64,000 bases of DNA from SAR86 cluster bacterium. GTDB taxonomy: Bacteria; Pseudomonadota; Gammaproteobacteria; Magnimaribacterales; TMED112. This document shows positions 1-61,298 of this stretch, in pieces (within the stretch, counting starts at the first letter, position 1; every line of letters starts with the position of its first letter). Location: positions 3,145 through 67,144 of the forward strand of contig QOPH01000003.1 in NCBI GenBank assembly GCA_003331635.1. The letters are read 5' to 3'. Under the pieces are notes generated by a model that had not been told where the DNA came from, did no database searches, and worked only from the letters and a program-made list of their open reading frames with translations. Position numbers and translations under genes: made by a program.

Positions 1-2
1 TT

Positions 3-1025
3 TTTTTAGGAATTTTAACTTTTCTACTTTCAATTTTGGGCTCTTTTATAGTGAGGTCAGGCGTGCTTAACAGCGTTCATACATTTGCAGCCGATCCAAC
101 ACGTGGTATTTATTTATTAAGCATCTTTTCATTGTTTTCATTTATATCTTTTGTTGCTTTCTTTTACAAAACAAATAATTTGAGCAGCAAGTGGCCTAAT
201 CTTTTTTCAAGAACTTATTTAATTCTTTTGAATAATTTAATTATGATGACAATTCTTTTAATCGTATTTATTGGAACTTTATATCCACTATTCTATGAAT
301 CAATTTATCAACAACCTCTGAGTGTTGGCCCAAAATATTTCTCAGACTTAATTACACCTCTTGTAATTGCTTTAATTAGTATTTTCTCATTCGAAATTTT
401 TCTTGGGGCGAAAAATAAAGGCTTGATTCTAGTCTCTTTATTTTTAATTGTTCCATTATTATTTTTCATATATGGTTTTGTAAAAAATATCGGCATTCTC
501 TTTACAGGATTAATACTTATAGTTTTTATATTAAGAGGCGGGTATAAAATTGTTTTTGATAAAAGTAATAGGGAATCACATAAAATATTAGGACACTTTT
601 CAGTAATATTATTAACCTTTAGTGTTCTTTGTAATCATTTTTATTCAAAAAATGTTGATCTTAAACTAGCACCAAATGAGATGATCCAAGTATTCGATAG
701 AACAGTTTCATTTGAATCTATAGAGCTTGAGAATGAGGATAATTTTGACTCAATTAAAGCTAATTTTTTGATTGATTATCAAGGAAATGAGTCTTTGATA
801 CAAAGTGAAAGAAGAATATACAGGATAGGCGGACAAATAACCTCGGAAACAGGTATTAGTCCTAGCTTTTTAAGGGATTATTTAATAGTTTTAGGTGATA
901 GATACTCCGATGGCTCTTGGACACTATCCTTTTCTATAAAGTATGGAATTATGACAATTTGGCTATCCTCTGTACTGTTGATGATATCAATGCTTTATGG
1001 AATTATTAAAAGATCAAATGAATAG
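3..1025 (+). CDS. ccmF: Cytochrome c biogenesis heme lyase CcmF, C-terminal part (5' end outside window)
   Basis: Frame is open from base 3 (FLGILTFLLSILGSFIVRSGVLNSVHTFAADPTRG). SVH.FA.DP.RG and GTLYP motifs, multiple TM helices, upstream of ccmG/ccmH. Confidence 0.92.
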   Translation, partial: FLGILTFLLSILGSFIVRSGVLNSVHTFAADPTRGIYLLSIFSLFSFISFVAFFYKTNNLSSKWPNLFSRTYLILLNNLIMMTILLIVFIGTLYPLFYESIYQQPLSVGPKYFSDLITPLVIALISIFSFEIFLGAKNKGLILVSLFLIVPLLFFIYGFVKNIGILFTGLILIVFILRGGYKIVFDKSNRESHKILGHFSVILLTFSVLCNHFYSKNVDLKLAPNEMIQVFDRTVSFESIELENEDNFDSIKANFLIDYQGNESLIQSERRIYRIGGQITSETGISPSFLRDYLIVLGDRYSDGSWTLSFSIKYGIMTIWLSSVLLMISMLYGIIKRSNE

Positions 1026-1527
1026 AATTTTTATTGTTATTCTAAGTTTTTTAATCATTGGCATGATTTATCTATTTTCTTATTCATTGTCCAAACCAGA
1101 AATCTCAAGGATTAATAATCAAACCGGAAAGGACTTACCTGAATTTAAAAATCTAGTCGACTTAAATCAAGAAATTTTTGATCAAGAAGAGATACTTAAA
1201 GGAAAAGTTTTATTAAATGTGTGGGCTAGTTGGTGCATTACATGCAAAGTAGAGCATCCTTTTTTAAAAAAAATCTCAGAAGAAAAAAATCTAAAAATTG
1301 TTGGTATCAACTACAAAGACCAACTCAGTGATGCAATTTCATATTTGGAAGATAATGGAGACCCTTACGATAATTCAATCTTTGACTTAGGTGGTGATTA
1401 CTCTCTGAAACTAGGCGTAATTGGTGCTCCAGAAACATTCTTAGTAATCGATGGAAAAATAGTTAGTCATAGGGTTGGAGAGCTGAATAGAAAAATTTGG
1501 GAGAGGGAATTTGAAAGTTTTTTTTAG
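1018..1527 (+). CDS. ccmG: Thiol:disulfide interchange protein CcmG/DsbE
   Basis: N-terminal TM anchor, LNVWASWCITC thioredoxin motif, GAPETF. The ATG at 1018 overlapping the ccmF stop is more likely than the ORF-track start at 997. Confidence 0.9.
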   Translation: MNRIFIVILSFLIIGMIYLFSYSLSKPEISRINNQTGKDLPEFKNLVDLNQEIFDQEEILKGKVLLNVWASWCITCKVEHPFLKKISEEKNLKIVGINYKDQLSDAISYLEDNGDPYDNSIFDLGGDYSLKLGVIGAPETFLVIDGKIVSHRVGELNRKIWEREFESFF

Positions 1528-1894
1528 TCTAGTTCTTCTTAGTTCAAGCCTCATTTTTGCAGAAAAACTTTATTCAAATTTAACAGAAGAAGAAATTTTA
1601 CGTCTTGATACAATTTCAGAAAATATAAGATGCCCTAAATGTGATTATGGAAATATAAATAGTTCAAATGCTCCAATTTCAAAAGATCTTAAAAAAGAAA
1701 TTTCATATTTGATTAGTAATGGGAAGTCAGATAAAGAAATCTATGATTTGATGAGAGAAAGGTATGGAAATTACATTATTTTGAATGAAGAAATTGGTAA
1801 AAATAATTTGCTTATTTATCTTCCATTAATTGTTTTAATTCTGTCTATTGGCCTTGTAACCATCTATACTATTAAAAAACGAAATGAGACTTAA
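1511..1894 (+). CDS. ccmH: Cytochrome c biogenesis protein CcmH (short form, no TPR/CcmI part)
   Basis: Signal peptide, IRCPKC motif, 'ERYGNYI', C-terminal TM helix, ccm context. Confidence 0.88.
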   Translation: MKVFFSLVLLSSSLIFAEKLYSNLTEEEILRLDTISENIRCPKCDYGNINSSNAPISKDLKKEISYLISNGKSDKEIYDLMRERYGNYIILNEEIGKNNLLIYLPLIVLILSIGLVTIYTIKKRNET

Positions 1895-4088
1895 AAGCTT
1901 AAAACTCTCTGGATTTAAAAGTTTCGTTGATCCGATTCAAGTAGACTTCCCTGGAATAATGTGTGGCATTGTTGGTCCAAATGGTTGTGGAAAGTCAAAC
2001 ATAATTGATGCAATCAAATGGGTAAAAGGAGAGCTGTCAGCGAAAAGTCTTCGTAGTGAAAGTCTTCAAGATGTAATTTTTAATGGCTCAGATAATAGAA
2101 AGCCCGTAAGCCATTGCTCTGTTGAACTCTTTTTTGATAATTCTGAAAATTTTTTGGGTGGAGAATATCTCAAATTTGATGAAGTGAGTGTTAAAAGAGA
2201 AATGGGAAGAGATGGCCAGTCAACTTATTTTATAAATAATGCTTCAGCAAGAAGAAGAGATGTTCAAGATTTATTCCTTGGGACAGGGTTAGGTGCGAAT
2301 AGTTATGCAATTATTGAGCAAGGAATAATATCTAGTCTAGTTAGTGCAAAGCCAGAGGAGCTGAGAAGTTATGTGGAAGAAGCTGCTGGAATAACAAAAT
2401 ACAAAGAGAGAAAAAGAGAAACTGAATCAAGAATAAAAAGAACTTCAGAAAATATTGATAGACTCAAAGATCTTGAGGATGAAGTAAAAAGATCTATAAG
2501 GAGACTTAATGCAGAAGCAAATTTAACTACTAAATACAAAAAACTTAGAGAGAAAGAGAAAGAACTTTCAAAATTTTTAATCAACTATGAAATCAATGCA
2601 TTAACAGATCAGCTTAAATCTGCTGAGAAAGAAAATAAAAGTACTGAAGATGGAATAGAAAAACTTGATGGGGAAAGATTAGCTTTCACTTCAAAAAGAG
2701 ATGTGAGTAAAACAAAGCTAATGGAGGGTCTAAAAGATTTAGAGGATCAGCAGAGAGTATTTTTTGAACTGGGTGCAAAGATTTCATTAATAGAGGAGAA
2801 AGAAAAGTCATCAAATGTAAGAATTTCTGAATTAGAGCTTGAACAAGAAAAAAATAAAAAGAATTTAGCTGATTTAAGCGATGATGGTAGAGCTTTCGAA
2901 ACATCATCTGCTGAATCTGATGTTGAAAAAGTAATAGAAAGTGAAGTTTCTATTGAAATCAAAAAGTTTCAAGGAAAGGTTGATGAAAGCGTATTCGAAA
3001 TTTTGAAACAGTCATTAATTAAATTTTGGAAAAAAGGTTTTGACTTTGGAAAAGGAAAGGGTTCTGACAATTCAGAAACTATTAACTCTCTTAAAGAACA
3101 ATTTGTTGAGAGAAACAAAGCAATCATCAAAGAAATTGAGGGCATAAAAGAAGATCTTAAAAATGAAAAATCTGGACTTTCTGATCTTGTCGAAAATAGA
3201 AAGGAGCAAGAAGGAAAAATTACTACCCTTAGAGCAAATCAGGATAATTTAAATGAAGAAGTCAGAAAATTTGAGGCAGAAATCACAAGACTTGAAACAC
3301 AGAAGGAAGCAATATCACAAAAAAGAAACGAAGAAGAGGTTAATAAAAGAAGTTTAGAAAACGAAATCAAGGAAAAGACTGAGAAACTTAATACTTATAA
3401 AGATGTGAAAGATATTCAAGGAGAAAAAGAGGACATAAATATCGAATTAGAAAGGCTGCAACAGAAAATTATGAATCTAGGGCCTATCAATTTTGCAGCC
3501 CCTGAAACACTAGAAGCGGAAAAGCAAAGAAAAGAGGTCTTAACTAGTCAGATTGAGGAATTAGTTGAATCATTATCAAAACTAGATGAGGCAATTAAAA
3601 AGATAGATAGAGAATCTAATAAGTCTTTCAATGATTGCTTAAATTCAACTAATAAGTTTCTAGAGGAAATTTTCCCAAAACTTTTTGATGGTGGATTTTG
3701 TAAATTGAATCCTGTTGATAGCTCTGAAGACTCTGGATTAATTTTAATGGCTAGATTGCCTGGAAAAAAGAATACAAAACTATCTCAGTTATCAGGTGGT
3801 GAAAAGGCATTAACAGCTCTTGCTTTAGTTTTTTCATTGTTTTCTATAAATCCTGCTCCATTTTGTTTGCTAGATGAGGTCGATGCACCATTAGATGATG
3901 AAAACACTGTAAGGTTTATTAATTTAGTGTCTGAAATGTCTTCTAAGGTCCAATTTATTTTTGTAACACATAATAAAATATCAATGGAAAAAAGCACTCA
4001 TCTCCTTGGAGTGACTATGAGAGATCTAGGAGTTTCAAAAGTTGTTTCTGTGGACGTAGAACAGGCAATGGAGCTTACACAATCTTGA
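1884..4088 (+). CDS. smc: Chromosome segregation ATPase Smc, unusually short (734 aa), no recognisable hinge
   Basis: Walker A GPNGCGKSN, Q-loop IIEQG, EEAAGI, LGPINFAA, signature LSGGEKA, Walker B LDEVDAPLD, H-loop FVTHN, and smc-zipA-ligA synteny. Confidence 0.9.
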   Translation: MRLKSLKLSGFKSFVDPIQVDFPGIMCGIVGPNGCGKSNIIDAIKWVKGELSAKSLRSESLQDVIFNGSDNRKPVSHCSVELFFDNSENFLGGEYLKFDEVSVKREMGRDGQSTYFINNASARRRDVQDLFLGTGLGANSYAIIEQGIISSLVSAKPEELRSYVEEAAGITKYKERKRETESRIKRTSENIDRLKDLEDEVKRSIRRLNAEANLTTKYKKLREKEKELSKFLINYEINALTDQLKSAEKENKSTEDGIEKLDGERLAFTSKRDVSKTKLMEGLKDLEDQQRVFFELGAKISLIEEKEKSSNVRISELELEQEKNKKNLADLSDDGRAFETSSAESDVEKVIESEVSIEIKKFQGKVDESVFEILKQSLIKFWKKGFDFGKGKGSDNSETINSLKEQFVERNKAIIKEIEGIKEDLKNEKSGLSDLVENRKEQEGKITTLRANQDNLNEEVRKFEAEITRLETQKEAISQKRNEEEVNKRSLENEIKEKTEKLNTYKDVKDIQGEKEDINIELERLQQKIMNLGPINFAAPETLEAEKQRKEVLTSQIEELVESLSKLDEAIKKIDRESNKSFNDCLNSTNKFLEEIFPKLFDGGFCKLNPVDSSEDSGLILMARLPGKKNTKLSQLSGGEKALTALALVFSLFSINPAPFCLLDEVDAPLDDENTVRFINLVSEMSSKVQFIFVTHNKISMEKSTHLLGVTMRDLGVSKVVSVDVEQAMELTQS

Positions 4089-4732
4089 TTGATAATCCTT
4101 ATATTCAATATTCAATTTACATTATTTTTGGATTAATAATTCTTGCACTAATTGCCATAAAGGCCTATTCAATCTTCAAAAATAAGAATGGTTTGAAATT
4201 TTCAAAAGACTTAAATAAAAATAAAAAAAATGATGAAGGGAGCGTAACTCCAATAAATCAGAATTCTAGCGGAGGACCTCCTGAACAAATACAAATAGAT
4301 TTCAGTGCCAAAACAATCTCCTTGATTCTGAAGGCAAGAATCAATACTACTCCGATGTATGAAATCTTGAAAGCGAAGTTAAATAGTGCAGGCCTTAACG
4401 AAAAAAAACACCCAACAGAAGATGGGTATTTTTTTACTTCAAAACATGATGAAGGTGACAACAAGTTTTATGTCCTTAATCTTAAAACTCCCGGTACATT
4501 TTTAGAAAATCAGGAAGTAGAGGCAATAAACCTAACTCTTGAAATGCCTAATAGTATTAAAAAGAAAACTGAAGGATTGACTGTTTTCAATGAAATGATT
4601 GATTTAGCAAATTCAATCAAAAGTAACTTTGATATGGGACTTTTTGATGAGAATTTAAATAAAGTAGATGCTCAAACTTTGGAATATCTTAGAGAAGAAG
4701 TTTCACAAATAGATATGGGATATGGCACCTGA
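4085..4732 (+). CDS. zipA: Cell division protein ZipA-like
   Basis: N-terminal TM helix, short linker, C-terminal domain with 'F.VLNLKTPGTF' and 'FNEMIDLANSI....D.....LD.QTLEYLRE' pattern. Lies between smc and ligA. Confidence 0.7.
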   Translation: MIDNPYIQYSIYIIFGLIILALIAIKAYSIFKNKNGLKFSKDLNKNKKNDEGSVTPINQNSSGGPPEQIQIDFSAKTISLILKARINTTPMYEILKAKLNSAGLNEKKHPTEDGYFFTSKHDEGDNKFYVLNLKTPGTFLENQEVEAINLTLEMPNSIKKKTEGLTVFNEMIDLANSIKSNFDMGLFDENLNKVDAQTLEYLREEVSQIDMGYGT

Positions 4733-6698
4733 AGAAGAAATAAATAAGTTAAAAGCGGAACTTGAACGTCATAATAAGCTTTATCATCAAGACGATAATC
4801 CAGAAATATCTGATGCAGAATACGATGCTTTATATCAAAGATTTAAAGATTTAGAGACAAAACAAAACAAGAAAAAAAAACTATCACCAACCGATAAAGT
4901 CGGCGCAAAGCCTGCTAGAAATTTTGAAAAACATGATCACATCAAGCCAATGCTTTCTTTAAATAATGTCTTTAATGAAGAAGAGTTTGAAAAATTTGAA
5001 GAAAGGGTTCTAAAAAGGGTTGGAAACCAAGAAATAATTTATTCAATTGAGCCAAAATTTGATGGTATTGGAGTATCGCTTACCTACGAAAAAGGAAAAT
5101 TATCCAAGGCTGTAACGAGAGGTGATGGCATAACAGGTGAAGTGATTACTGAAAATGTTAAAACCATCAAACATATACCACTTACTCTAAAAGATTATCC
5201 AGAAGTAATTGAAATAAGGGGAGAGGTATTTTTTAGACTAAAACACTTTAAAAATATAAATGAAGAAATTGAGAGAAAAAATGGAAAGAAGTTTTTGAGC
5301 CCAAGAAATGCTGCGGCTGGAACTCTTAGAAATCTTGATAGAGAGGTTGTTGCAAGCAGACCACTAGATGTATTTTTTTATGGTTTGGGTGGACATAGCA
5401 GTGATTTTACAAAGCGAAATCAGAAAGATTTTTTAAATTTTCTTAAAGAAAATAATTTTTCAACTAATGAATTTACAAATTTTTCTTATAGAAGTGGGGT
5501 AAAAGATCATGTCGATAAAATTTTGTCTTCTCGTGAAGGTTTAGATTACGAAATTGATGGAGCGGTAGTTAAAGTAGATGATTTTTCCAAACAAGAAAAA
5601 CTTGGCTTTGTGTCTAAGGCTCCAAGATGGGCCGTAGCGTGGAAATTTCCAGCAACAGAAAAGGTTTCCAAAGTAAAGAAAGTTCTTTTTTCTGTAGGCA
5701 GAACAGGAGTAATTACACCTTTTGCAACAATTGAACCAGTACTAATTGCTGGTGCAAATATTTCAAATATTTCTTTGCATAATATGGATGAATTAAAACG
5801 TCTTGAAATAATGGATAATGATAGTGTTCTTGTCAGGAGAGCAGGAGATGTTATCCCACAGCTTGTTAAGGTAAATAAAGAGTTACGCTCAGGTGATGAA
5901 ACTCCAGTAAAAATTCCAGACAAATGTCCATCATGTGAATCAGAACTTTTTCTTGATGGTCCTTTCTTGAAATGTGGTGCTGGAATGAAATGCAAAAAAC
6001 AACTCTTTGGTTTTTTTGAACATTTTGTTTCGAGAAAGGCGATGAATATTGAGGGTCTTGGATACAAAATAAATAAAACTTTAATCAATTTAGGATATAT
6101 GAAATCAGCTGCAGATTTATTCAGATTAAAAAAATATGAAAGTGAGCTTAAATCACTAGAAGGCTTTGGTGAGAAATCAATTGAGAATCTTTTTCAGAGC
6201 ATTGAGAGCTCAAGAGAGCCAAGTCTTGCAATGTTTATATATTCGCTTGGCATACCAGAGGTTGGTGAGACAACCGCATCTAGTTTAGCGAGATACTTTA
6301 AAACTTTTTCTAATTTTAAAAATACAAATCTAGATGAATTGTTACAAATGGATAATATTGGAGATATTGTTGCTCAAAAGATTATAAATTTCCTTTCTAC
6401 TGATCCGATTGGTATTGATGATTTAGTAAATGAATTAAGCATTAAAGATTTTGTGGTTACTGAAGATAGCCATTTAGATAATAAAAAGATTGTTATTACA
6501 GGTACTTTTGAAGGGTATAGTAGAGAAGAGTTGAAAGATATAATTAAAGATAAAGGCGGCATTCCATCAAGCAGCGTGAGTTCAAAAACAAATTATTTAA
6601 TTTGTGGCGAAAATCCTGGCTCTAAATTAAGAAAGGCAGAAGAATTTGGCATAGAATTAGTTAAAGAGGAAAACTTAAAAGAGTTTTTAAAAATATGA
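4722..6698 (+). CDS. ligA: NAD-dependent DNA ligase
   Basis: EPKFDG adenylation motif, TRGDG, EIRGE, PRWAVAWKF, Zn finger CPSC..C..C, HhH repeats, C-terminal BRCT. Confidence 0.97.
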   Translation: MAPEEEINKLKAELERHNKLYHQDDNPEISDAEYDALYQRFKDLETKQNKKKKLSPTDKVGAKPARNFEKHDHIKPMLSLNNVFNEEEFEKFEERVLKRVGNQEIIYSIEPKFDGIGVSLTYEKGKLSKAVTRGDGITGEVITENVKTIKHIPLTLKDYPEVIEIRGEVFFRLKHFKNINEEIERKNGKKFLSPRNAAAGTLRNLDREVVASRPLDVFFYGLGGHSSDFTKRNQKDFLNFLKENNFSTNEFTNFSYRSGVKDHVDKILSSREGLDYEIDGAVVKVDDFSKQEKLGFVSKAPRWAVAWKFPATEKVSKVKKVLFSVGRTGVITPFATIEPVLIAGANISNISLHNMDELKRLEIMDNDSVLVRRAGDVIPQLVKVNKELRSGDETPVKIPDKCPSCESELFLDGPFLKCGAGMKCKKQLFGFFEHFVSRKAMNIEGLGYKINKTLINLGYMKSAADLFRLKKYESELKSLEGFGEKSIENLFQSIESSREPSLAMFIYSLGIPEVGETTASSLARYFKTFSNFKNTNLDELLQMDNIGDIVAQKIINFLSTDPIGIDDLVNELSIKDFVVTEDSHLDNKKIVITGTFEGYSREELKDIIKDKGGIPSSSVSSKTNYLICGENPGSKLRKAEEFGIELVKEENLKEFLKI

Positions 6699-13897: not shown

Positions 13898-14506
13898 ATG
13901 AATATATTTGAAAATAATTCTCTACATACACTTTCCGATAGGTTTGCCTATTCAATGACCATTTTCTTTAGGTTTATAGCAGATACTTTTTTTGCAAAAA
14001 GATATGGCCACAGGGCAGTAGTGCTCGAAACTATTGCGGGTGTTCCAGGCATGGTCGCAGGTATGTGGATGCACTTTAAAAGCTTAAGATCCATGAAAGT
14101 TGGCTATGGCAAACATATAAGAGAAATGTTGGCAGAGGCAGAAAATGAAAGAATGCATTTAATGTTCTTTATCGAAATTGCTAAACCAAATATATTTGAG
14201 AGAAGTTTAGTGCTATTTTCACAGTTTTTGTTTGGCGCATTTTACTTCTTTATGTATGTTTTCTTCACCAAAACAGCCCATAGAATGATAGGTTTTTTTG
14301 AAGATGAAGCAGTTAAAAGTTACTCGGAGTATTTGAAGATGATTGAAAATGGTGAAATTGAAAATGTTAAAGCACCTCAAATAGCTATTGAATACTACGA
14401 TTTGAAAAGTAATGCTCGACTAATAGATCTTGTTAAATGTGTTAAGGCAGACGAAGAGCATCACAGTGAAGTTAACCATAAATATGCAGATGAGGAGATA
14501 GGATGA
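13898..14506 (+). CDS. aox: Alternative oxidase (ubiquinol oxidase, diiron)
   Basis: LETIAGVPG, EAENERMHL, FFEDEAV.SY, ADEEHH. All diiron carboxylate ligands are present. Confidence 0.95.
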   Translation: MNIFENNSLHTLSDRFAYSMTIFFRFIADTFFAKRYGHRAVVLETIAGVPGMVAGMWMHFKSLRSMKVGYGKHIREMLAEAENERMHLMFFIEIAKPNIFERSLVLFSQFLFGAFYFFMYVFFTKTAHRMIGFFEDEAVKSYSEYLKMIENGEIENVKAPQIAIEYYDLKSNARLIDLVKCVKADEEHHSEVNHKYADEEIG

Positions 14507-52164: not shown

Positions 52165-52237
52165 TGTTTAATTATACTATTTGAAGTAAAAAAAATTATT
52201 TTAAGAAATTTATGATAAGTTTGTAGTAGGAGTGTTT

Positions 52238-52963
52238 ATGAGAATTTTAGTACTTTTAATTATTTCATTTTTTTCTTTTTCACAGGAGGAACAATATCGT
52301 TCTGAATTTGCCTGGTGTAATTTAAAGGATGAAAATTCTATTGATGATGCAAAAAATATTGCAAGCAAATATGGTGAGTTTGTAGAAAGTGTAGGTTCGC
52401 AGTACGAACAATCATTTTTGGCTCCAATGCATGCAGGAGAATTTCAATACGATTATGTTCTGTGGGGAAGTTGGCCAGATGGGCAGTCCATGTATGAAGA
52501 GTGGGGATCGTACTTAAATGACTACGAAAAACCACCTGAAGTAGCAGACTGCAAAAAGTGGCGAGCCGTATATAATTTTTTAGTTGGCAAAAGTGAAATC
52601 TCATCTGAAAAGAAAGATGAGAAAAAACCTGTTCAGTTTGCTGCATGTAAATTTACAGCCTCTGGCAACAGTGAAAAACTATTTTCTGCTGCCAAACTTA
52701 ATGAATCTGAACTTATTGAATATGGTTTTAAAGGGTGGAAGCATCATTATCTATTTCCATATCTTGGATGGGAAGATGAATTTGAATTTGATTTTATTCA
52801 GGTATTTCACTGGGACTCATTCGAATCCAGAGCGACAATGGCACAGAAATACGTAGATTTTTCTTCAAAGTACCCTGAAAACTCAAAGAGATTTGACAAG
52901 ATTGCCAAATGCAGTGGGCAAAATAGCTTCTATGAAGAATTTATTTTTTCAAATTGGAATTAA
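52238..52963 (+). CDS. Secreted hypothetical protein with two homologous domains
   Basis: RBS AGGAG before the ATG at 52238, signal peptide, repeats beginning EFAWC and QFAAC. Confidence 0.7.
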   Translation: MRILVLLIISFFSFSQEEQYRSEFAWCNLKDENSIDDAKNIASKYGEFVESVGSQYEQSFLAPMHAGEFQYDYVLWGSWPDGQSMYEEWGSYLNDYEKPPEVADCKKWRAVYNFLVGKSEISSEKKDEKKPVQFAACKFTASGNSEKLFSAAKLNESELIEYGFKGWKHHYLFPYLGWEDEFEFDFIQVFHWDSFESRATMAQKYVDFSSKYPENSKRFDKIAKCSGQNSFYEEFIFSNWN

Positions 52964-52986: not shown

Positions 52987-53691
52987 CTAATAAGCATTTC
53001 TTATTTTAACTTCTGAGCTACTGAAAGCTCTCTTTTCACCATCTAAGTGAACAATCATTCTTCCCGAAGTGTCGATGCATAAAAAAACAGCTTTTTTTTC
53101 ATCTGGCAAGATTAGTATTTCTTGATTCATATGGAAGCATTTTTTCTCCCACCTTTCTTTCCAGTCGCTTAGAAAATTATCCTCATTAATTTTTGATAAC
53201 TTTTTAAAAACAAATTTAATAAATTTTAATCTTTCCCCTTCATTTACTTTCAGATTTAGATCTCCCCAGTGAGCTTCTAGTGCATCCAGTTTTAGATTTA
53301 TTCCTACCCCAATTACGACAAAAAATTTACCATCGCTATTAACTGACTCAACTAAAATTCCACCAATTTTTTTATTTTTGTACACCAAATCATTAGGCCA
53401 CTTAAGTTGAATATCAATATCAAAGAAATCTTGTATTGCATCGCTTACTATTACTGCTGTTTTAATGGGTAAATTCTCTGAAAGAGCATCTTTTATGAAA
53501 CCAAATGAAAAATAAATATTACCTTCTTTACTATGCCACTTGTTTTGATTTCTTCCTCTTCCATTTGTTTGTGAATTGCTGGAAATAAGCACTGAAGAAT
53601 GTTTTTTTTCTTCTAATCTTTCTAAACAAATTTCGTTAGTAGAAGTTACTGAATGAAAGTGAACCTCTAAAATGCTAATTTGCTCTCCCAT
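52987..53691 (-). CDS. birA: Biotin protein ligase (no N-terminal HTH)
   Basis: 'STNE', QTNGRGR...W, LKWPND, KIGGILVE, GVGIN. Confidence 0.93.
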   Translation of the reverse strand: MGEQISILEVHFHSVTSTNEICLERLEEKKHSSVLISSNSQTNGRGRNQNKWHSKEGNIYFSFGFIKDALSENLPIKTAVIVSDAIQDFFDIDIQLKWPNDLVYKNKKIGGILVESVNSDGKFFVVIGVGINLKLDALEAHWGDLNLKVNEGERLKFIKFVFKKLSKINEDNFLSDWKERWEKKCFHMNQEILILPDEKKAVFLCIDTSGRMIVHLDGEKRAFSSSEVKIRNAY

Positions 53692-54370
53692 CCTTTAAAT
53701 GATAAGGGACATACACCAAATAAGTGAAAAACCATGCAGCAGGTATAAGTGCAAAGATATGATAAGGAGCATCCGGCATAAAGCTTGTAATATTGTCTCC
53801 ACTAGGTTTTTCTAAAATGTACCAATAATTAGTTTCTAGAGCAAAATTTAGTACATACATCAATGGCAAGAAAACAAAAGTTGTGTAAGTAATTATTTTG
53901 AGAAAGTCTTTAAAATATGGTCTTTGATCCATTAAGACCATTGCTACGGATACTCCCAAAATTATAAGCAAATGTCCATACATGTGATTTAGATATTCAA
54001 GAGATGGGAAGCCAAGCGCAGTATCAGGAGTTAATAAAGACATTCCTGCACCAACTATTCCCCAAAAATATGCAAACAAGAAAAATATTCTAGGGCCACC
54101 TAAAAGATAAATAGATATACACCAAGTTGAAAAAGCACACATATGGAGTGGAAGCGCATCTACCATTGCGTAATTTCTAACTTCAACTTTAAAAAATGGA
54201 TCGAAAATCTCATGAGAAATCATAAGAAAAGCAAGTGTATAGCGTAAAATCTTGATTGTCTTCTCGCTTGAACCTATGAAGAGTCTTGGTAAAAAAACTA
54301 TAACAAAAATGCAAAAAATAAATGTGAGGATGTGAGATGTGTCTAGTAAATTCAATGCCTGTGCAGTCAT
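53675..54370 (-). CDS. YwaF/TIGR02206 (TMEM164-like) membrane protein, copy 2
   Basis: LPLHMCAFS, YFWG, LLTPD, YGH, NYWYILEKP, FMP.APYH. Confidence 0.85.
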   Translation of the reverse strand: MTAQALNLLDTSHILTFIFCIFVIVFLPRLFIGSSEKTIKILRYTLAFLMISHEIFDPFFKVEVRNYAMVDALPLHMCAFSTWCISIYLLGGPRIFFLFAYFWGIVGAGMSLLTPDTALGFPSLEYLNHMYGHLLIILGVSVAMVLMDQRPYFKDFLKIITYTTFVFLPLMYVLNFALETNYWYILEKPSGDNITSFMPDAPYHIFALIPAAWFFTYLVYVPYHLKDGRAN

Positions 54371-56037
54371 TTTAAGTTTCTTATCATATCAGCTGCTTTT
54401 TCACCAATCATCATTGAAGGTGCATTTGTATTTCCACCCACTAGCGTCGGCATAATAGAAGCATCAACAACCCTTAGATTTTTAACGCCTTTTACTTTGA
54501 GCTCACTATCCACTACAGCCATTTCATCATTGCCCATCTTACACGTACCTACAGGGTGATATATTGTATCTGACCTTTCTCTAAGAGCATTGACTATAGC
54601 TTGATCATTATTAATGTCTATAGGATTTCTAATATTTTTATAATTACTTAACGGCTCAGTATTCATAATTTCCATCATTCTTTTATATCCATCTACCATT
54701 GTGTCAATATCGGATTGAACCGAAAGATAATTGGGATCAATTAAAGGATCTTCAAATGGGTCTTTGCTTGCAATTTTCACAGTTCCTCTTGATTCAGGCC
54801 TTAAAAGACACATATGACAGCTAAAGCCATTCCCCCATAGGTCTTGACGTCCATGATCTTCAACCATAGCTACTACAAAATGTAACTGAATGTCTGGAAT
54901 TTCCTTATCTTTTGATGATTTTATAAAAGCACCTCCTTCAGCTAAAGGCGAAGTAAACATCCCTTTCCTCTGAAAAATTAATTTCATAAATTCTATAGGT
55001 GCTCTAAAAGTAAACTTTAATGATTTGAAGAAACTACCTAAAAGCTCCCAGTCATCAACTCGATGCGTTGTAATATAGTCAAGATGATCTTGAAGGTTTT
55101 CACCAACTCCTTTTAAATCTACAAGACACTCAATATGTCTTGACGCTAAAAAATCTTTGTCACCTATTCCAGATCTCATTAAAAGGGTAGGGGAACCATA
55201 GGCACCACCACATAAAATAATCTCTTTGTTTGCTTCTAAAGAGAAATATTTGTCCTTACTTATACATTTAACTGATTTTGCTCTTAATTTTTCAAATTCA
55301 ATCTTTTCTACAGTAGTGTCTGTGAATATAGTCAAGTTTTCTCTATCTTTTATTGGGTTGAGATAGGCTACAGCACTACTGCACCTAAGACCATTTTTTT
55401 GGGTTACTTGATATATTCCAACACCTTCTTGATCATCACCATTGAAGTCGTTATTAAATTTATGAACTTTTGAACCTGCTTCAACAAAAAACCTTGTGAA
55501 TGGGTTGTCATGTCTTTGAGCAGCAACATTCAAGGGTCCGCCTTTGCCATGTAAATCATCTGAAAAAACTTCGTTATTTTCAGATTTCTTAAAATATGGA
55601 AGCACATCTTTAAAAGACCATCCTTCATTACCTAGTTCAGCCCAATGATCGTAGTCCCATTTGTGCCCTCTAACATAAAGCATGCCATTAACCGAGCTTG
55701 AGCCACCTAGAACTTTACCTCTAGGTTGGTACCCTTTTCTCTTTTCTTCATAACTTTGAGGAACTGAGTAAGTCCTTCCAAATGTGTCTGAAATTTTTGC
55801 AGGCCCCTCAGCTAATGTAACATCACTAAAATTTTTCTGTGGAACTGTATCGTACTCATAAATTAGGTTAGCTCCTCTTAAAAATGCATACATTGCAGGT
55901 ATATGAATTAAAGGATTTTTATCTTTCGGGCCAGTTTCAATCAGACAAACATTAGTTGCTTTGTCTTCCGTTAATCTATTGGCTAAGACACAACCTGCTG
56001 AACCGCCGCCAACAATTATGTAATCGAATTTTGTCAT
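54367..56037 (-). CDS. GMC oxidoreductase (AlkJ/choline dehydrogenase-like)
   Basis: DYIIVGGGSAGCVLANRL, PRGKVLGGSSSVNGM, GENLQDH, YHPVGTCKMG, GGNTNAP. Confidence 0.95.
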   Translation of the reverse strand: MTKFDYIIVGGGSAGCVLANRLTEDKATNVCLIETGPKDKNPLIHIPAMYAFLRGANLIYEYDTVPQKNFSDVTLAEGPAKISDTFGRTYSVPQSYEEKRKGYQPRGKVLGGSSSVNGMLYVRGHKWDYDHWAELGNEGWSFKDVLPYFKKSENNEVFSDDLHGKGGPLNVAAQRHDNPFTRFFVEAGSKVHKFNNDFNGDDQEGVGIYQVTQKNGLRCSSAVAYLNPIKDRENLTIFTDTTVEKIEFEKLRAKSVKCISKDKYFSLEANKEIILCGGAYGSPTLLMRSGIGDKDFLASRHIECLVDLKGVGENLQDHLDYITTHRVDDWELLGSFFKSLKFTFRAPIEFMKLIFQRKGMFTSPLAEGGAFIKSSKDKEIPDIQLHFVVAMVEDHGRQDLWGNGFSCHMCLLRPESRGTVKIASKDPFEDPLIDPNYLSVQSDIDTMVDGYKRMMEIMNTEPLSNYKNIRNPIDINNDQAIVNALRERSDTIYHPVGTCKMGNDEMAVVDSELKVKGVKNLRVVDASIMPTLVGGNTNAPSMMIGEKAADMIRNLK

Positions 56038-56744
56038 GCTTTTTTAAATTTGTCCCACAACAAGAAAGGTATGTATGTGATGAAAAAGACAATTAGTGCT
56101 AAGGGTGCAATGCCCAACATATGATAAGGAGCTTCAGGCATAAAAACTGCTAGAGAGTCTCCGGCAGGTTTATCCATTAAATACCAATAATTTGCATCTC
56201 CTCCAATTAAAATATTCACTGCGTAAATTGGTATTAGAAGAAGAATAGTTATAACTGCCATTCTCCAAAAATTTTGCAGATGTGGACGGTATTTTAAAAC
56301 AGTTAATGCAAAAAACACTCCCAATAAAATTTGGCCATGGCCATAGAAGAAGAAAAAGTATTCAACATCGGGCCACCCAAGTGTAAGATCTGGTGTCGCA
56401 AGCGCCATAGTTGCACCTCCTACACCCCAGTAGTAAGGGAGCTCGAAGAACATTTGATTTCTGCTTTTGCTTAACAAGAAAATACCTATAAGAAATGCAC
56501 TAAACGCACACATATGTAACGGAAGGTAAGTCTCCCAAGGTTTTTCAAAAACAAAAATGTATAAAAATGGCCTAATAATTTCAAAGCCTAAAAGAGAGAA
56601 ACCTATAATTTTTGTGACAATATTTTGAAGGGAAGTGCTGATGAAATTACTTATTAAACAAATCAAAACAATTATACCGAAGGTATAAGCAAGAGTCTCA
56701 ATGTGTTGTTCCCCAAAAAGTATAAATGGTTCAATCATAAGCAA
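56034..56744 (-). CDS. YwaF/TIGR02206 (TMEM164-like) membrane protein, copy 1
   Basis: LPLHMCAFS, YYWG, LATPDL, YGHG, NYWYLMDKP, FMPEAPYH. Confidence 0.85.
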   Translation of the reverse strand: MLMIEPFILFGEQHIETLAYTFGIIVLICLISNFISTSLQNIVTKIIGFSLLGFEIIRPFLYIFVFEKPWETYLPLHMCAFSAFLIGIFLLSKSRNQMFFELPYYWGVGGATMALATPDLTLGWPDVEYFFFFYGHGQILLGVFFALTVLKYRPHLQNFWRMAVITILLLIPIYAVNILIGGDANYWYLMDKPAGDSLAVFMPEAPYHMLGIAPLALIVFFITYIPFLLWDKFKKA

Positions 56745-56829: not shown

Positions 56830-57342
56830 ATGCCAAAAGATTGTCTTCTTTTAAATGGAAATGGTAAGCCTGTGAGCTATTTTCCTTTATCAACTTTAGA
56901 TTGGAAAACTGCTATCAAACTAATCTTTACAAGAAACATAGTTATTGTAAAAAATCATGAAGATTGGGTTGTGCGTTCACCATCAGTTACGGTAGAAGTT
57001 CCAAGCATAATTATGTTGAAGAGATTCCATAAATTTCAAAATTACGTAAAGTTCTCCAGGTCAAATGTCTATCTCAGAGACATGTATAAATGCCAGTATT
57101 GTTTAGATATTTTTGATGTAAATCAGCTTACATTAGACCATGTAATACCAAGATCTAAGGGGGGACAGACAGAATGGCAGAATATTGTTACATGTTGCAA
57201 ATCATGCAATACAAAAAAAGGTTCCAAAACTCTTAAGCCAATAATAGAGCCAAAAAAACCATCATTTGCTCATCTATTAAATGGACATAAGTTAAATAGG
57301 TCAGATTTTCCTGACAAATCTTGGGCTGACTATATTTTTTAG
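56830..57342 (+). CDS. HNH endonuclease (McrA-like, zinc-binding)
   Basis: 'LLLN....P.S..PLS...W..A', 'SR.NV.LRD...CQYC', LTLDHVIPRS.GG, CCKSCN.KKG. Confidence 0.9.
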   Translation: MPKDCLLLNGNGKPVSYFPLSTLDWKTAIKLIFTRNIVIVKNHEDWVVRSPSVTVEVPSIIMLKRFHKFQNYVKFSRSNVYLRDMYKCQYCLDIFDVNQLTLDHVIPRSKGGQTEWQNIVTCCKSCNTKKGSKTLKPIIEPKKPSFAHLLNGHKLNRSDFPDKSWADYIF

Positions 57343-60556: not shown

Positions 60557-60814
60557 ATGGGTAAAAATCATAAAGATTTAGAAATCCTGCTAACGCTTAA
60601 AAGAAAAGAGGCTGGTATAACTCAGGCTGTTTTAGCAGAGGCTGTACAGGTATCACGTAAAAGTATCAATGCAATTGAGAATGGAATTTATATTCCCTCT
60701 ACAGTATTATCATTAAAGATTGCTACAATATTGAATTGTAAAGTTGAGGACTTATTTAAATTACATGAGGGAACTTTTCCTCTTATGATTAATCAAAGTA
60801 AATATGAGCAATAA
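60557..60814 (+). CDS. XRE-family HTH transcriptional regulator
   Basis: 'RKEAGITQAVLAEAVQVSRKSINAIENG.Y.PS..L.LKIA..L...VEDLF'. Confidence 0.9.
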   Translation: MGKNHKDLEILLTLKRKEAGITQAVLAEAVQVSRKSINAIENGIYIPSTVLSLKIATILNCKVEDLFKLHEGTFPLMINQSKYEQ

Positions 60815-61298
60815 ACTTAAAATATTTTTAACCTTTTCTTTAGTCTTTCTAACTAGCTGTGCTACTGGTGGATTCAAGCCAAACGTTGTGCCTAGAGATG
60901 CAGCAGGAAAATCTCAAATAGTCCTCTCAGGCACTGTTGTATCAGTCAAAGAGGTAATTATAGAGGGGGATAGGGATGTTGGAACTGCATCGGGTTCTGT
61001 AATTGGTGCAATCGTAACAGGATCAGCTGCAAAAAGATCAGCTGACGGTGATGGAGATACATCGGAGTTAATTGGTGGATTAGTTGGAGGGCTGGTTGGT
61101 TCAGTTGTTGGAAGTGAAGTAGGAGAGTCTCTATCAAGAAAGAAGGGGCTAGAGTTAATAATTCTTCTTGAAAATAATGGAAAAGAAATTTCAGTTGTGC
61201 AAGAAATATCAGAAGACCTAAACTATAATTTCCGTAAAGGAGATGAAGTTAGAATTATCAGGTCTGCCGGCAGAACGAGAGTAGTTCCACTTGAATAA
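60804..61298 (+). CDS. SlyB-like glycine-zipper outer membrane lipoprotein
   Basis: Lipobox LTSC, 'GTVVSV', glycine zipper GGLVGGLVGSVVG, 'VVQ......F..GD.VR'. Confidence 0.8.
   Translation: MSNKLKIFLTFSLVFLTSCATGGFKPNVVPRDAAGKSQIVLSGTVVSVKEVIIEGDRDVGTASGSVIGAIVTGSAAKRSADGDGDTSELIGGLVGGLVGSVVGSEVGESLSRKKGLELIILLENNGKEISVVQEISEDLNYNFRKGDEVRIIRSAGRTRVVPLE

What the first reader, a model, noticed from the sequence alone, without database searches (positions are those of the whole stretch)
1884..4088. Mini-Smc: canonical smc locus and intact ATPase head, but no hinge domain and roughly half-length arms
Seen: 734 aa in one uninterrupted frame with Walker A, Q-loop, signature, Walker B and H-loop all intact, in smc-zipA-ligA synteny. 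Coiled coil covers about aa 172-332 and about 399-590, with only ~65 non-coiled residues between. Established: bacterial Smc is about 1150-1200 aa, dimerises through a ~150-aa globular hinge with a GX6GX3GG motif, and its function in B. subtilis is sensitive to arm length. No hinge motif is visible here and over 400 aa are missing. Inference: a streamlined condensin with a different dimerisation mode and a much smaller ring, which would test loop-extrusion models. Not Rad50/SbcC (no CXXC hook) and the head is Smc-type, not RecN-type.
Basis: partly seen in the sequence, partly recalled or inferred. Interest (0 to 1): 0.72.

Follow-up and report, generated by a model that had tools for sequence, protein, structure and literature searches.

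The report
Hinge-less half-length Smc of SAR86 bacteria
The chromosome-organising Smc protein of the abundant marine SAR86 bacteria has lost its central hinge and the outer half of its arms, yet the gene is conserved, strongly constrained and (in relatives) still paired with its ScpA/ScpB partners, which makes it a natural test of what the hinge is for.

Summary
ORF 1884-4088 (+) encodes a 734-aa Smc with every ATPase motif intact, scoring above NCBI's Smc cut-off, in a ccmFGH-smc-zipA-ligA locus. The centre has no hinge: no Pfam or profile-profile match, an all-helical AlphaFold centre, and about 450 residues missing relative to canonical relatives.

It is not an assembly artefact or a decaying copy. 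Hundreds of independent contigs carry 733-736-aa orthologues, and dN/dS is 0.036.

The organism is SAR86 (Magnimaribacterales, CHAB-I-7/TMED112 family). Every SAR86 orthologue recovered lacks the hinge; lengths are 727-736, 810, 822-827 and 995 aa, plus a probable 906-aa class.

One SAR86 single-cell contig carries both a hinge-less smc and scpA-scpB. So this is most likely still an Smc-ScpAB condensin with arms of about 24 nm. How two subunits are held together at the arm tip was not resolved.

"Hinge-less" ocean SMCs were reported in silico in 2025, assigned to Actinobacteria. The general idea is therefore published, but I found no description of the SAR86 case.

The parts
1884..4088 (+). 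smc coding sequence, 734 aa, hinge-less half-length Smc
   Evidence: ORF list; TIGR02168 724.8 bits, above the 567 cut-off; SMC_N 2.6e-61; Foldseek top hit 5XEI, an Smc head with coiled coil and joint
1884..2378 (+). N-terminal half of the ATPase head (aa 1-165), with Walker A GPNGCGKS at nt 1974-1997 and Q-loop Q146
   Evidence: Motifs read directly; 73 of 165 positions identical across the SAR86 length classes aligned; dN/dS 0.007
2391..2879 (+). N-terminal arm helix, aa 170-332 (163 residues, about 24 nm); the neck part 166-222 is highly conserved
   Evidence: AlphaFold2 secondary structure; neck 16 of 57 invariant against 2 of 110 in the distal arm; dN/dS 0.03
2880..3068 (+). Arm tip that replaces the hinge, aa 333-395: loop, helix 341-360, loop, helix 368-390, Gly-rich loop. 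Family-specific motif FW(K/Q)xG(Y/F)xxGxG at aa 381-393 (nt 3024-3062)
   Evidence: AlphaFold2 (pLDDT 41-72 here); class alignment; hhalign against gammaproteobacterial hinges gives probability 0.2%; no PDB profile match; dN/dS 0.13, the highest in the gene but still purifying; 0 of 63 positions conserved across families
3069..3476 (+). C-terminal arm helices, aa 396-531 (breaks at 430-431 and 504-514)
   Evidence: AlphaFold2; dN/dS 0.05
3477..3503 (+). Conserved break in the C-terminal helix (LGPINFAAPE, aa 532-540), taken to be the Smc 'joint'
   Evidence: AlphaFold2 loop 532-538; invariant G533, I535, N536, A539; best structural match is a head-plus-joint crystal structure
3504..4085 (+). 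C-terminal neck and head half (aa 541-734), with signature LSGGEK (nt 3789-3806), Walker B FCLLDEVD (nt 3861-3884) and H-loop H696
   Evidence: Motifs; 60 of 133 head positions invariant; dN/dS 0.016
1511..1894 (+). ccmH, upstream neighbour that overlaps the smc start; last gene of a ccmABCEFGH cluster
   Evidence: Pfam CcmH 3.1e-25; full cluster seen in independent contigs
4085..4732 (+). zipA (215 aa, short), downstream neighbour that overlaps the smc stop
   Evidence: ZipA_C 1.4e-9
4722..6698 (+). ligA (NAD-dependent DNA ligase, 658 aa), which completes the smc-zipA-ligA arrangement
   Evidence: Precomputed Pfam ligase domains on the identical gene in L081; arrangement conserved in the recovered SAR86 loci (ligA missing only in L047 and in loci cut short)

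Best explanation
This is the Smc ATPase of a SAR86 bacterium (order Magnimaribacterales, CHAB-I-7/TMED112 family). It is the orthologue sitting at the canonical smc locus; whether the genome holds another SMC-type system could not be checked. It descends from a canonical ~1170-aa gammaproteobacterial Smc through loss of the central ~450 residues, that is the distal half of both arm helices plus the hinge, at or before the origin of the order. What remains is the complete head, the neck (where the kleisin N-domain binds in characterised Smc), the joint, and about 163 residues of coiled coil per strand, capped by a short helix-loop-helix tip. Shown: it is intact, conserved and under strong purifying selection, and scpA-scpB are present in SAR86 genomes that carry a hinge-less smc. 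Inferred: it still works as an Smc-ScpAB complex, in which ATP-driven head engagement and the asymmetric ScpA bridge hold two Smc subunits together, acting on the chromosome with a rod about 24 nm long instead of about 50 nm. Also inferred, more weakly: the two short amphipathic tip helices give a weak, lineage-specific tip-to-tip contact, for example a four-helix bundle, in place of the hinge.
For: Smc identity and intact motifs. All-helical centre in this protein and in the 827-aa class. No hinge homology. Colinear with a canonical Smc except for residues ~367-819. The nearest non-SAR86 relatives are 1150-1180 aa. 733-736-aa orthologues at 73-98% identity occur on hundreds of independent contigs and in SAGs and MAGs. 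Three separate metagenome assemblies carry an identical ccmG followed by a 734-aa smc, zipA and (in two of them) a full-length ligA. The gene order is conserved in the recovered SAR86 loci of every length class, and the genome labels map those classes onto the named SAR86 families (PMC11582366). dN/dS is 0.036 overall, 0.007-0.016 in the head, 0.03-0.05 in the arms and 0.13 at the tip. Neck and joint are far more conserved than the distal arms. scpA (PF02616), scpB (PF04079) and rluB lie at 150.9-159.7 kb of contig CACEVU010000001.1 (SAR86 SAG AG-404-K15); an 810-aa smc of the hinge-less class lies at 312.8-335.2 kb of the same contig. The same scpAB gene order is found on further contigs with SAR86-like composition. 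In B. subtilis the hinge can be swapped for an unrelated dimerisation domain, and some shortened arms remain functional (PMC5344682).
Against: No dimer model or experiment exists, so tip contact is conjecture. The tip is the least constrained region, shares no conserved residue across families, and its hydrophobic density is not clearly above that of the arms. A second SMC-type system (MukBEF, MksBEF or a paralogue) in the genome could not be excluded. In B. subtilis, arms of about 165 residues were not among the functional lengths reported. AlphaFold confidence is moderate overall and low at the tip.
Confidence: 0.7

Rival explanations
1. The arms are not joined at the tip at all. The complex is a kleisin-bridged head dimer with two free, short arms. 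DNA is held only in the head/kleisin compartment or clamped on the engaged heads, and the arms serve as levers or spacers rather than as a ring.
For: The tip has the weakest constraint (dN/dS 0.13) and no residue conserved across families. Tip helices differ in length between classes, 20+23 aa against 34+34 aa. Tip hydrophobicity is no higher than in the arms. ScpAB is retained and of ordinary size.
Against: Within the window's family the tip keeps invariant W, G and G residues and a GxxxG-like motif, and dN/dS is still well below 1. The zinc-hook replacement experiment implies that some tip dimerisation is needed (PMC5344682).
Confidence: 0.25
2. It is an accessory or repurposed paralogue, for example for repair or defence. 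A second full-length Smc or a MukBEF/MksBEF system elsewhere in the genome does the chromosome organisation.
For: The whole genome could not be searched. PADLOC gives a 220-bit match to 'mad3' and weaker LmuB/AriA matches.
Against: It sits in the orthologous smc-zipA-ligA position shared with full-length gammaproteobacterial smc. It scores as an Smc equivalog. Canonical hinge-bearing Smc proteins give the same PADLOC hits at 190-203 bits, so those hits are generic. There are no defence genes nearby. Genomes of this family are about 1.0-1.05 Mb (PMC11582366). For the published hinge-less cluster, no co-occurrence with a regular smc was found in single-cell genomes (PMC12153180).
Confidence: 0.05
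3. Assembly artefact or in-frame deletion pseudogene peculiar to this contig.
For: None beyond the unusual length.
Against: Orthologues of the same length occur in hundreds of independent assemblies, single-cell genomes and two closed genomes. There is strong purifying selection.
Confidence: 0.01

Closest known systems
Canonical bacterial Smc-ScpAB condensin (e.g. B. subtilis Smc; NCBIfam TIGR02168)
   Same: Head with all ATPase motifs, conserved neck, joint, antiparallel coiled-coil arms, gammaproteobacterial smc-zipA-ligA locus, and ScpA/ScpB partners present in SAR86 genomes.
   Different: No hinge domain. Arms about half as long (163-residue N-helix against about 340). Total length 734 aa against about 1170.
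Engineered Mini-Smc and Smc(zinc-hook) variants of B. subtilis (Burmann et al. 2017, PMC5344682)
   Same: Shortened arms can work, and the hinge fold itself is dispensable if another dimerisation module replaces it. Functional arm lengths followed a ~91-aa period, and 344 - 2x91 = 162, close to the 163-residue N-helix here and to the minor natural mode at 163 aa. This is arithmetic of mine, not a test.
   Different: Those constructs always kept a hinge or a zinc hook, and the shortest functional arms reported were 253-267 aa. Their survey of natural sequences was seeded on hinge alignments, so hinge-less proteins were excluded by design.
'Hinge-less' SMC cluster from Tara Oceans genes (Environ Microbiome 2025, PMC12153180)
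   Same: Smc-type head, coiled coil, no hinge, no CxxC, very abundant in the ocean, no regular smc alongside it in single-cell genomes.
   Different: That cluster was assigned to Actinomycetes and branched with actinobacterial Smc. The protein here is gammaproteobacterial (SAR86), with zipA-ligA next to it. The paper gives no locus, partner, selection or arm-length analysis.
Rad50/SbcC
   Same: ABC-type head with an antiparallel coiled coil and no globular hinge.
   Different: No CxxC zinc hook; NCBIfam Rad50/SbcC scores are far below their cut-offs; no Mre11/SbcD neighbour.
RecN
   Same: Short SMC-like protein without a hinge. That RecN dimerises through its coiled-coil tip is my recollection, not tested here.
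   Different: TIGR00634 scores 28 bits against a cut-off of 408. The head is of Smc type, and the locus and partners are those of Smc.
MukB / MksB / JetC
   Same: SMC-class condensins that are also found in Gammaproteobacteria.
   Different: Only marginal P-loop matches to JetC models. No MukE/MukF-type neighbours.

Membership tests
Bacterial Smc (TIGR02168 / Smc-ScpAB) | Bipartite ABC ATPase head with Walker A, Q-loop, signature, Walker B and H-loop | tested here: met
   Motifs read directly; SMC_N 2.6e-61
Bacterial Smc (TIGR02168 / Smc-ScpAB) | Whole-protein score above the curated equivalog cut-off | tested here: met
   724.8 bits against 567.35
Bacterial Smc (TIGR02168 / Smc-ScpAB) | Long intramolecular antiparallel coiled coil with a joint | tested here: met
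   Helices 170-332 and 396-601 with the break at 532-538; top fold match 5XEI. The arms are about half the canonical length.
Bacterial Smc (TIGR02168 / Smc-ScpAB) | Central globular hinge dimerisation domain (PF06470, glycine motif) | tested here: not met
   No Pfam hit at E<=1; hhalign against 16 gammaproteobacterial hinges gives probability 0.2%; all-helical centre of 63 residues
Bacterial Smc (TIGR02168 / Smc-ScpAB) | Kleisin ScpA and ScpB encoded in the same genome | tested here: inconclusive
   Met for SAR86 SAG AG-404-K15, where they lie on the same contig as a hinge-less smc, and for other contigs with SAR86-like composition. Not found, and not excludable, for the window's own family; absent from the 64-kb window.
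Bacterial Smc (TIGR02168 / Smc-ScpAB) | Orthologous genomic position (smc-zipA-ligA in Gammaproteobacteria) | tested here: met
Rad50/SbcC | CxxC zinc hook at the coiled-coil apex; Mre11/SbcD partner | tested here: not met
   No CxxC; model scores far below cut-offs
RecN | RecN equivalog score (TIGR00634) | tested here: not met
   28.1 bits against 407.85
Hinge-less ocean SMC cluster (PMC12153180) | Smc-type head, no hinge, no CxxC, abundant in marine metagenomes | tested here: met
   many Tara-derived members
Hinge-less ocean SMC cluster (PMC12153180) | Belongs to the same monophyletic, Actinomycetes-assigned clade | not testable with these tools
The present protein is from SAR86, a gammaproteobacterium, so it is probably a separate lineage.
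Defence SMC-like ATPases (Lamassu LmuB, MADS mad3, PARIS AriA, Wadjet JetC) | A match specific to a defence model, plus partner genes of the defence system nearby | tested here: not met
   The mad3 hit of 220 bits is matched by canonical Smc controls at 190-203 bits; the neighbours are ccm, zipA and ligA

The most novel reading that the evidence does not exclude
SAR86 Smc has no tip dimerisation at all. An abundant free-living bacterium would then organise and segregate its chromosome with a kleisin-bridged pair of short, open-ended Smc arms. That would mean neither a hinge nor a closed SMC lumen is needed for Smc-ScpAB function, and that the arm acts as a mechanical element whose length is retuned quickly (727 to 995 aa within one order).
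Probability: 0.25. Interest if true: 0.85.

Novelty: new member of a known kind. Interest (0 to 1): 0.62.

Why it matters
The hinge is treated as a defining part of SMC proteins. It is thought to act as the constitutive dimerisation site and, in several models, as a DNA-binding site or gate.

Here a whole order of very abundant ocean bacteria keeps a strongly constrained Smc, and at least in part ScpAB, without a hinge and with arms of several discrete lengths. That gives a natural series for asking three questions:
- What is the minimal Smc machine?
- How does arm length matter?
- Is closure at the tip required at all?

A cultured SAR86 isolate now exists (HIMB1674, PMC11582366), and the proteins are small enough for straightforward biochemistry, so these questions can be tested. 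The case also shows that surveys seeded on hinge sequences have overlooked this class.

Tried and rejected
- **Misassembly or pseudogene:** rejected.
- **Hidden, divergent hinge:** rejected by profile-profile comparison, a PDB profile search and two structure models. Absence of a Pfam hinge hit is not decisive on its own, because full-length relatives of 1109-1160 aa also lack one.
- **Defence-system SMC-like protein:** rejected with canonical Smc controls.
- **ScpA/ScpB inside the window or the smc-flanking loci:** none found, by motif regex, by Pfam on 18 ORFs of 164-301 aa (plus two of 138-144 aa), or by tblastn with SAR86 ScpAB-locus proteins.
- **SAR86 literature and supplements:** nothing on smc, scpA or scpB.
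- **Hydrophobic density of the tip helices as a sign of a bundle interface:** inconclusive.
- **ScpA relatives in viral contigs:** none.
- **L094 and L144:** two low-GC proteobacterial scpA contigs from the metagenome scan do not resemble SAR86 in tetranucleotide composition, so they were not used.
- **Extending the window through its last gene (recR):** no exact match on record.
Full report
**The feature**

ORF 1884-4088 on the + strand encodes 734 residues. Its start overlaps the end of ccmH, and its stop overlaps the TTG start of a short zipA. ligA follows directly.

All ATPase motifs are present: Walker A GPNGCGKS 31-38, Q146, LSGGEK 636-641, FCLLDEVD 660-667 and H696. There is no CxxC.

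- Pfam finds SMC_N at 2.6e-61 and no hinge even at E<=1.
- NCBI's Smc equivalog model scores 724.8 bits against a cut-off of 567.
- RecN, RecF, Rad50 and SbcC models score far below their cut-offs.

**Is the hinge really absent?**

A missing Pfam hit is not enough. Some full-length relatives of 1109-1160 aa also have no Pfam hinge hit, and a 1170-aa relative reaches only 7e-7. Three other lines settle the point.

1. BLASTP against that 1170-aa relative, whose hinge lies at 523-619, aligns window 1-369 to 1-366 and window 390-734 to 820-1170. About 450 residues are therefore missing, leaving only about 20 unaligned.
2. AlphaFold2 (mean pLDDT 73.6) gives one helix at 170-332, two short helices at 341-360 and 368-390, then helices from 396 to 601. 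Those are broken at 504-514 and at the conserved GPINFAAPE loop at 532-538. The centre has no beta structure. The best PDB fold match is an Smc head with coiled coil and joint, 5XEI.
3. A profile of the central 130 residues from 12 family members, compared with a profile of 16 gammaproteobacterial hinges, gives a probability of 0.2%. The same profile finds nothing significant among PDB sequences.

**Artefact or decay?**

Neither. More than a hundred 90%-identity clusters of 733-736 aa at 73-98% identity come from independent assemblies. Species-representative genomes give the same result. Three unrelated metagenome assemblies carry ccmABCEFGH, a 734-aa smc and zipA around an identical ccmG.

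Nei-Gojobori dN/dS within the family is 0.036 for the whole gene. By region:

| Region | dN/dS |
|---|---|
| Head | 0.007-0.016 |
| Arms | 0.03-0.05 |
| Tip | 0.13 |

**Whose gene is it?**

The genome hits are SAR86 single-cell genomes and MAGs. The closest, at 97%, is AG-907-K13. SAR86 is the order Magnimaribacterales, with four families (PMC11582366). TMED112-labelled genomes in the window's length class place it in the CHAB-I-7/TMED112 family, whose genomes are about 1.05 Mb.

Smc length appears to track family. My mapping of length classes onto families rests on a few genome labels:

| Smc length (aa) | Group |
|---|---|
| 727-736 | CHAB-I-7 and the D2472 ('Suzuki') family |
| 809-810 | the AG-339-G14 family |
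| 821-827 | a fourth class, taken by elimination and composition to be Magnimaribacteraceae |
| 995 | SAR86E-type genomes |
| 905-906 | an abundant class with the same zipA-ligA neighbours, probably also SAR86 |

No representative tested has a Pfam hinge. An AlphaFold model of an 827-aa member is likewise all-helical in the centre, with tip helices of 34+34 residues instead of 20+23. The order ccmFGH-smc-(zipA)-ligA-SLT-M16 peptidase is kept in the recovered loci of every length class, so these genes are orthologues. The nearest proteins outside this group are ordinary 1150-1180-aa Smc. The simplest history is one central deletion at or before the origin of the order, followed by changes in arm length.

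**Partners**

The window holds no scpA or scpB, and whole genomes cannot be read with these tools.

A metagenome scan for an AT-rich coding of the ScpA motif FEGPLDLLL produced contig L161, which carries scpA, scpB and rluB (Pfam 1.6e-30 and 8.2e-49). Its tetranucleotide composition matches the 810-aa SAR86 family.

A protein search seeded with that ScpA returned P0408. P0408 is encoded at 150.9-159.7 kb of contig CACEVU010000001.1 from SAR86 SAG AG-404-K15. That same 491,754-bp contig carries the hinge-less 810-aa smc at 312.8-335.2 kb.

The same gene order, dnaT-DAHP synthase-nadE-scpA-scpB-rluB-HAD-methyltransferase-pntAB, recurs on other contigs whose composition matches the 810- and 822-aa families. 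ScpA (270-279 aa) and ScpB (188-202 aa) are of ordinary size.

So hinge-less Smc coexists with ScpAB in at least part of the order.

**How it probably works**

Head, neck and joint are highly conserved across the SAR86 length classes: 16 of 57 and 17 of 61 neck positions are invariant. The distal arms (2 of 110 and 1 of 108) and the tip (0 of 63) are not. This pattern fits retained ATPase activity and kleisin binding.

I therefore read the protein as a working Smc-ScpAB motor with a rod of about 24 nm. ATP-engaged heads and the ScpA bridge would hold two subunits together. Whether the tips also pair is open.

- For pairing: within the family there are invariant W382, G385 and G391 in an FWxxG(Y/F)xxGxG motif, and dN/dS stays well below 1.
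- Against pairing: the tip is the least constrained region, it differs between families, and it is not unusually hydrophobic.

Experiments in B. subtilis show that the hinge fold can be replaced by a zinc hook and that arm function follows a ~91-residue period (PMC5344682). The 163-residue N-helix here equals 344 minus two periods and matches a minor natural mode at 163 aa. That is suggestive arithmetic, not evidence.

**What is known**

A 2025 paper reported an abundant 'hinge-less' SMC cluster in Tara Oceans genes. It was assigned to Actinomycetes, and no partner, locus or selection analysis was given (PMC12153180). The survey of natural arm lengths was seeded on hinges and so could not see such proteins. 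SAR86 genome papers do not mention smc.

The kind is therefore published, in silico only. The SAR86 lineage, its locus, its length series and its retained ScpAB appear to be undescribed in the searchable literature.

**Limits**

- No multimer prediction, read mapping or whole-genome search was possible.
- AlphaFold confidence at the tip is low.
- Family assignment of the scpAB contigs other than AG-404-K15 rests on composition and synteny.
- I could not test whether the published hinge-less cluster overlaps this one.

Noticed in passing
L064-L067 (SAR86E-type loci), smc at L064:10001-12985: The 995-aa Smc class equals the 732-aa class plus an extra, diverged copy of both arm segments: L026 residues 212-583 align to L064 329-713 at 38.7% identity, E 2e-70, while the flanks are 75-82% identical. 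The extra copy includes a second copy of the joint-like 'INLAAPDE' loop. Arm length therefore changes by matched blocks of about 131 residues on both strands between close relatives.
   Followed up: partly
L079:2367-5087, L080:877-3597; P0259 and P0270-P0388: A 905-906-aa Smc class with no Pfam hinge hit, also followed by zipA and ligA, is abundant in Tara and other marine metagenomes. One contig is 1.57 Mb. It aligns end to end with the 822-aa SAR86 class at 42% identity. It is probably another SAR86 lineage, but its taxonomy was not confirmed.
   Followed up: partly
L204:4001-6104 (contig CACEVU010000001.1, 150,910-159,725); L161:4532-6643: In SAR86, scpA-scpB-rluB sit in a conserved block dnaT-DAHP synthase-nadE-scpA-scpB-rluB-HAD hydrolase-methyltransferase-pntAB, about 160 kb from smc on the same contig.
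   Followed up: yes
L073:10001-11182: The smc ORF of a long-read MAG (LRMED-352) stops after 393 aa, although the match continues. This is most likely a sequencing frameshift rather than a real truncation.
   Followed up: no
window 4085-4732: ZipA is only 215 aa. [quoted passage not shown] A 157-aa ZipA follows the 906-aa Smc class. The linker region seems strongly reduced.
   Followed up: no
P0162 (990 aa), P0240 (1003 aa): Two short Smc representatives outside SAR86 keep a Pfam hinge (1.1e-5 and 4.7e-12). They are examples of shortening the arms without losing the hinge.
   Followed up: partly
window 52232-52963 (+) and 60804-61298 (+): Two ORFs, of 243 aa and 164 aa, have no Pfam match at E<=1e-4.
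   Followed up: no
window 53675-54370 (-) and 56034-56744 (-); 56830-57342 (+): Two TMEM164-family paralogues flank a 556-aa ORF. A small stand-alone HNH endonuclease gene of 170 aa lies next to them.
   Followed up: no
window 13898-14506 (+): An alternative oxidase (AOX, 2.7e-67) is encoded. The surrounding genes suggest lipid and aromatic-compound degradation: alkyl sulfatase, acyl-CoA dehydrogenase, enoyl-CoA hydratase and PutA.
   Followed up: no
L083:14638-15552: In one of the three independent assemblies of this locus, ligA is called as a 304-aa C-terminal fragment only. This could be an assembly or gene-calling gap, or a real variant.
   Followed up: no
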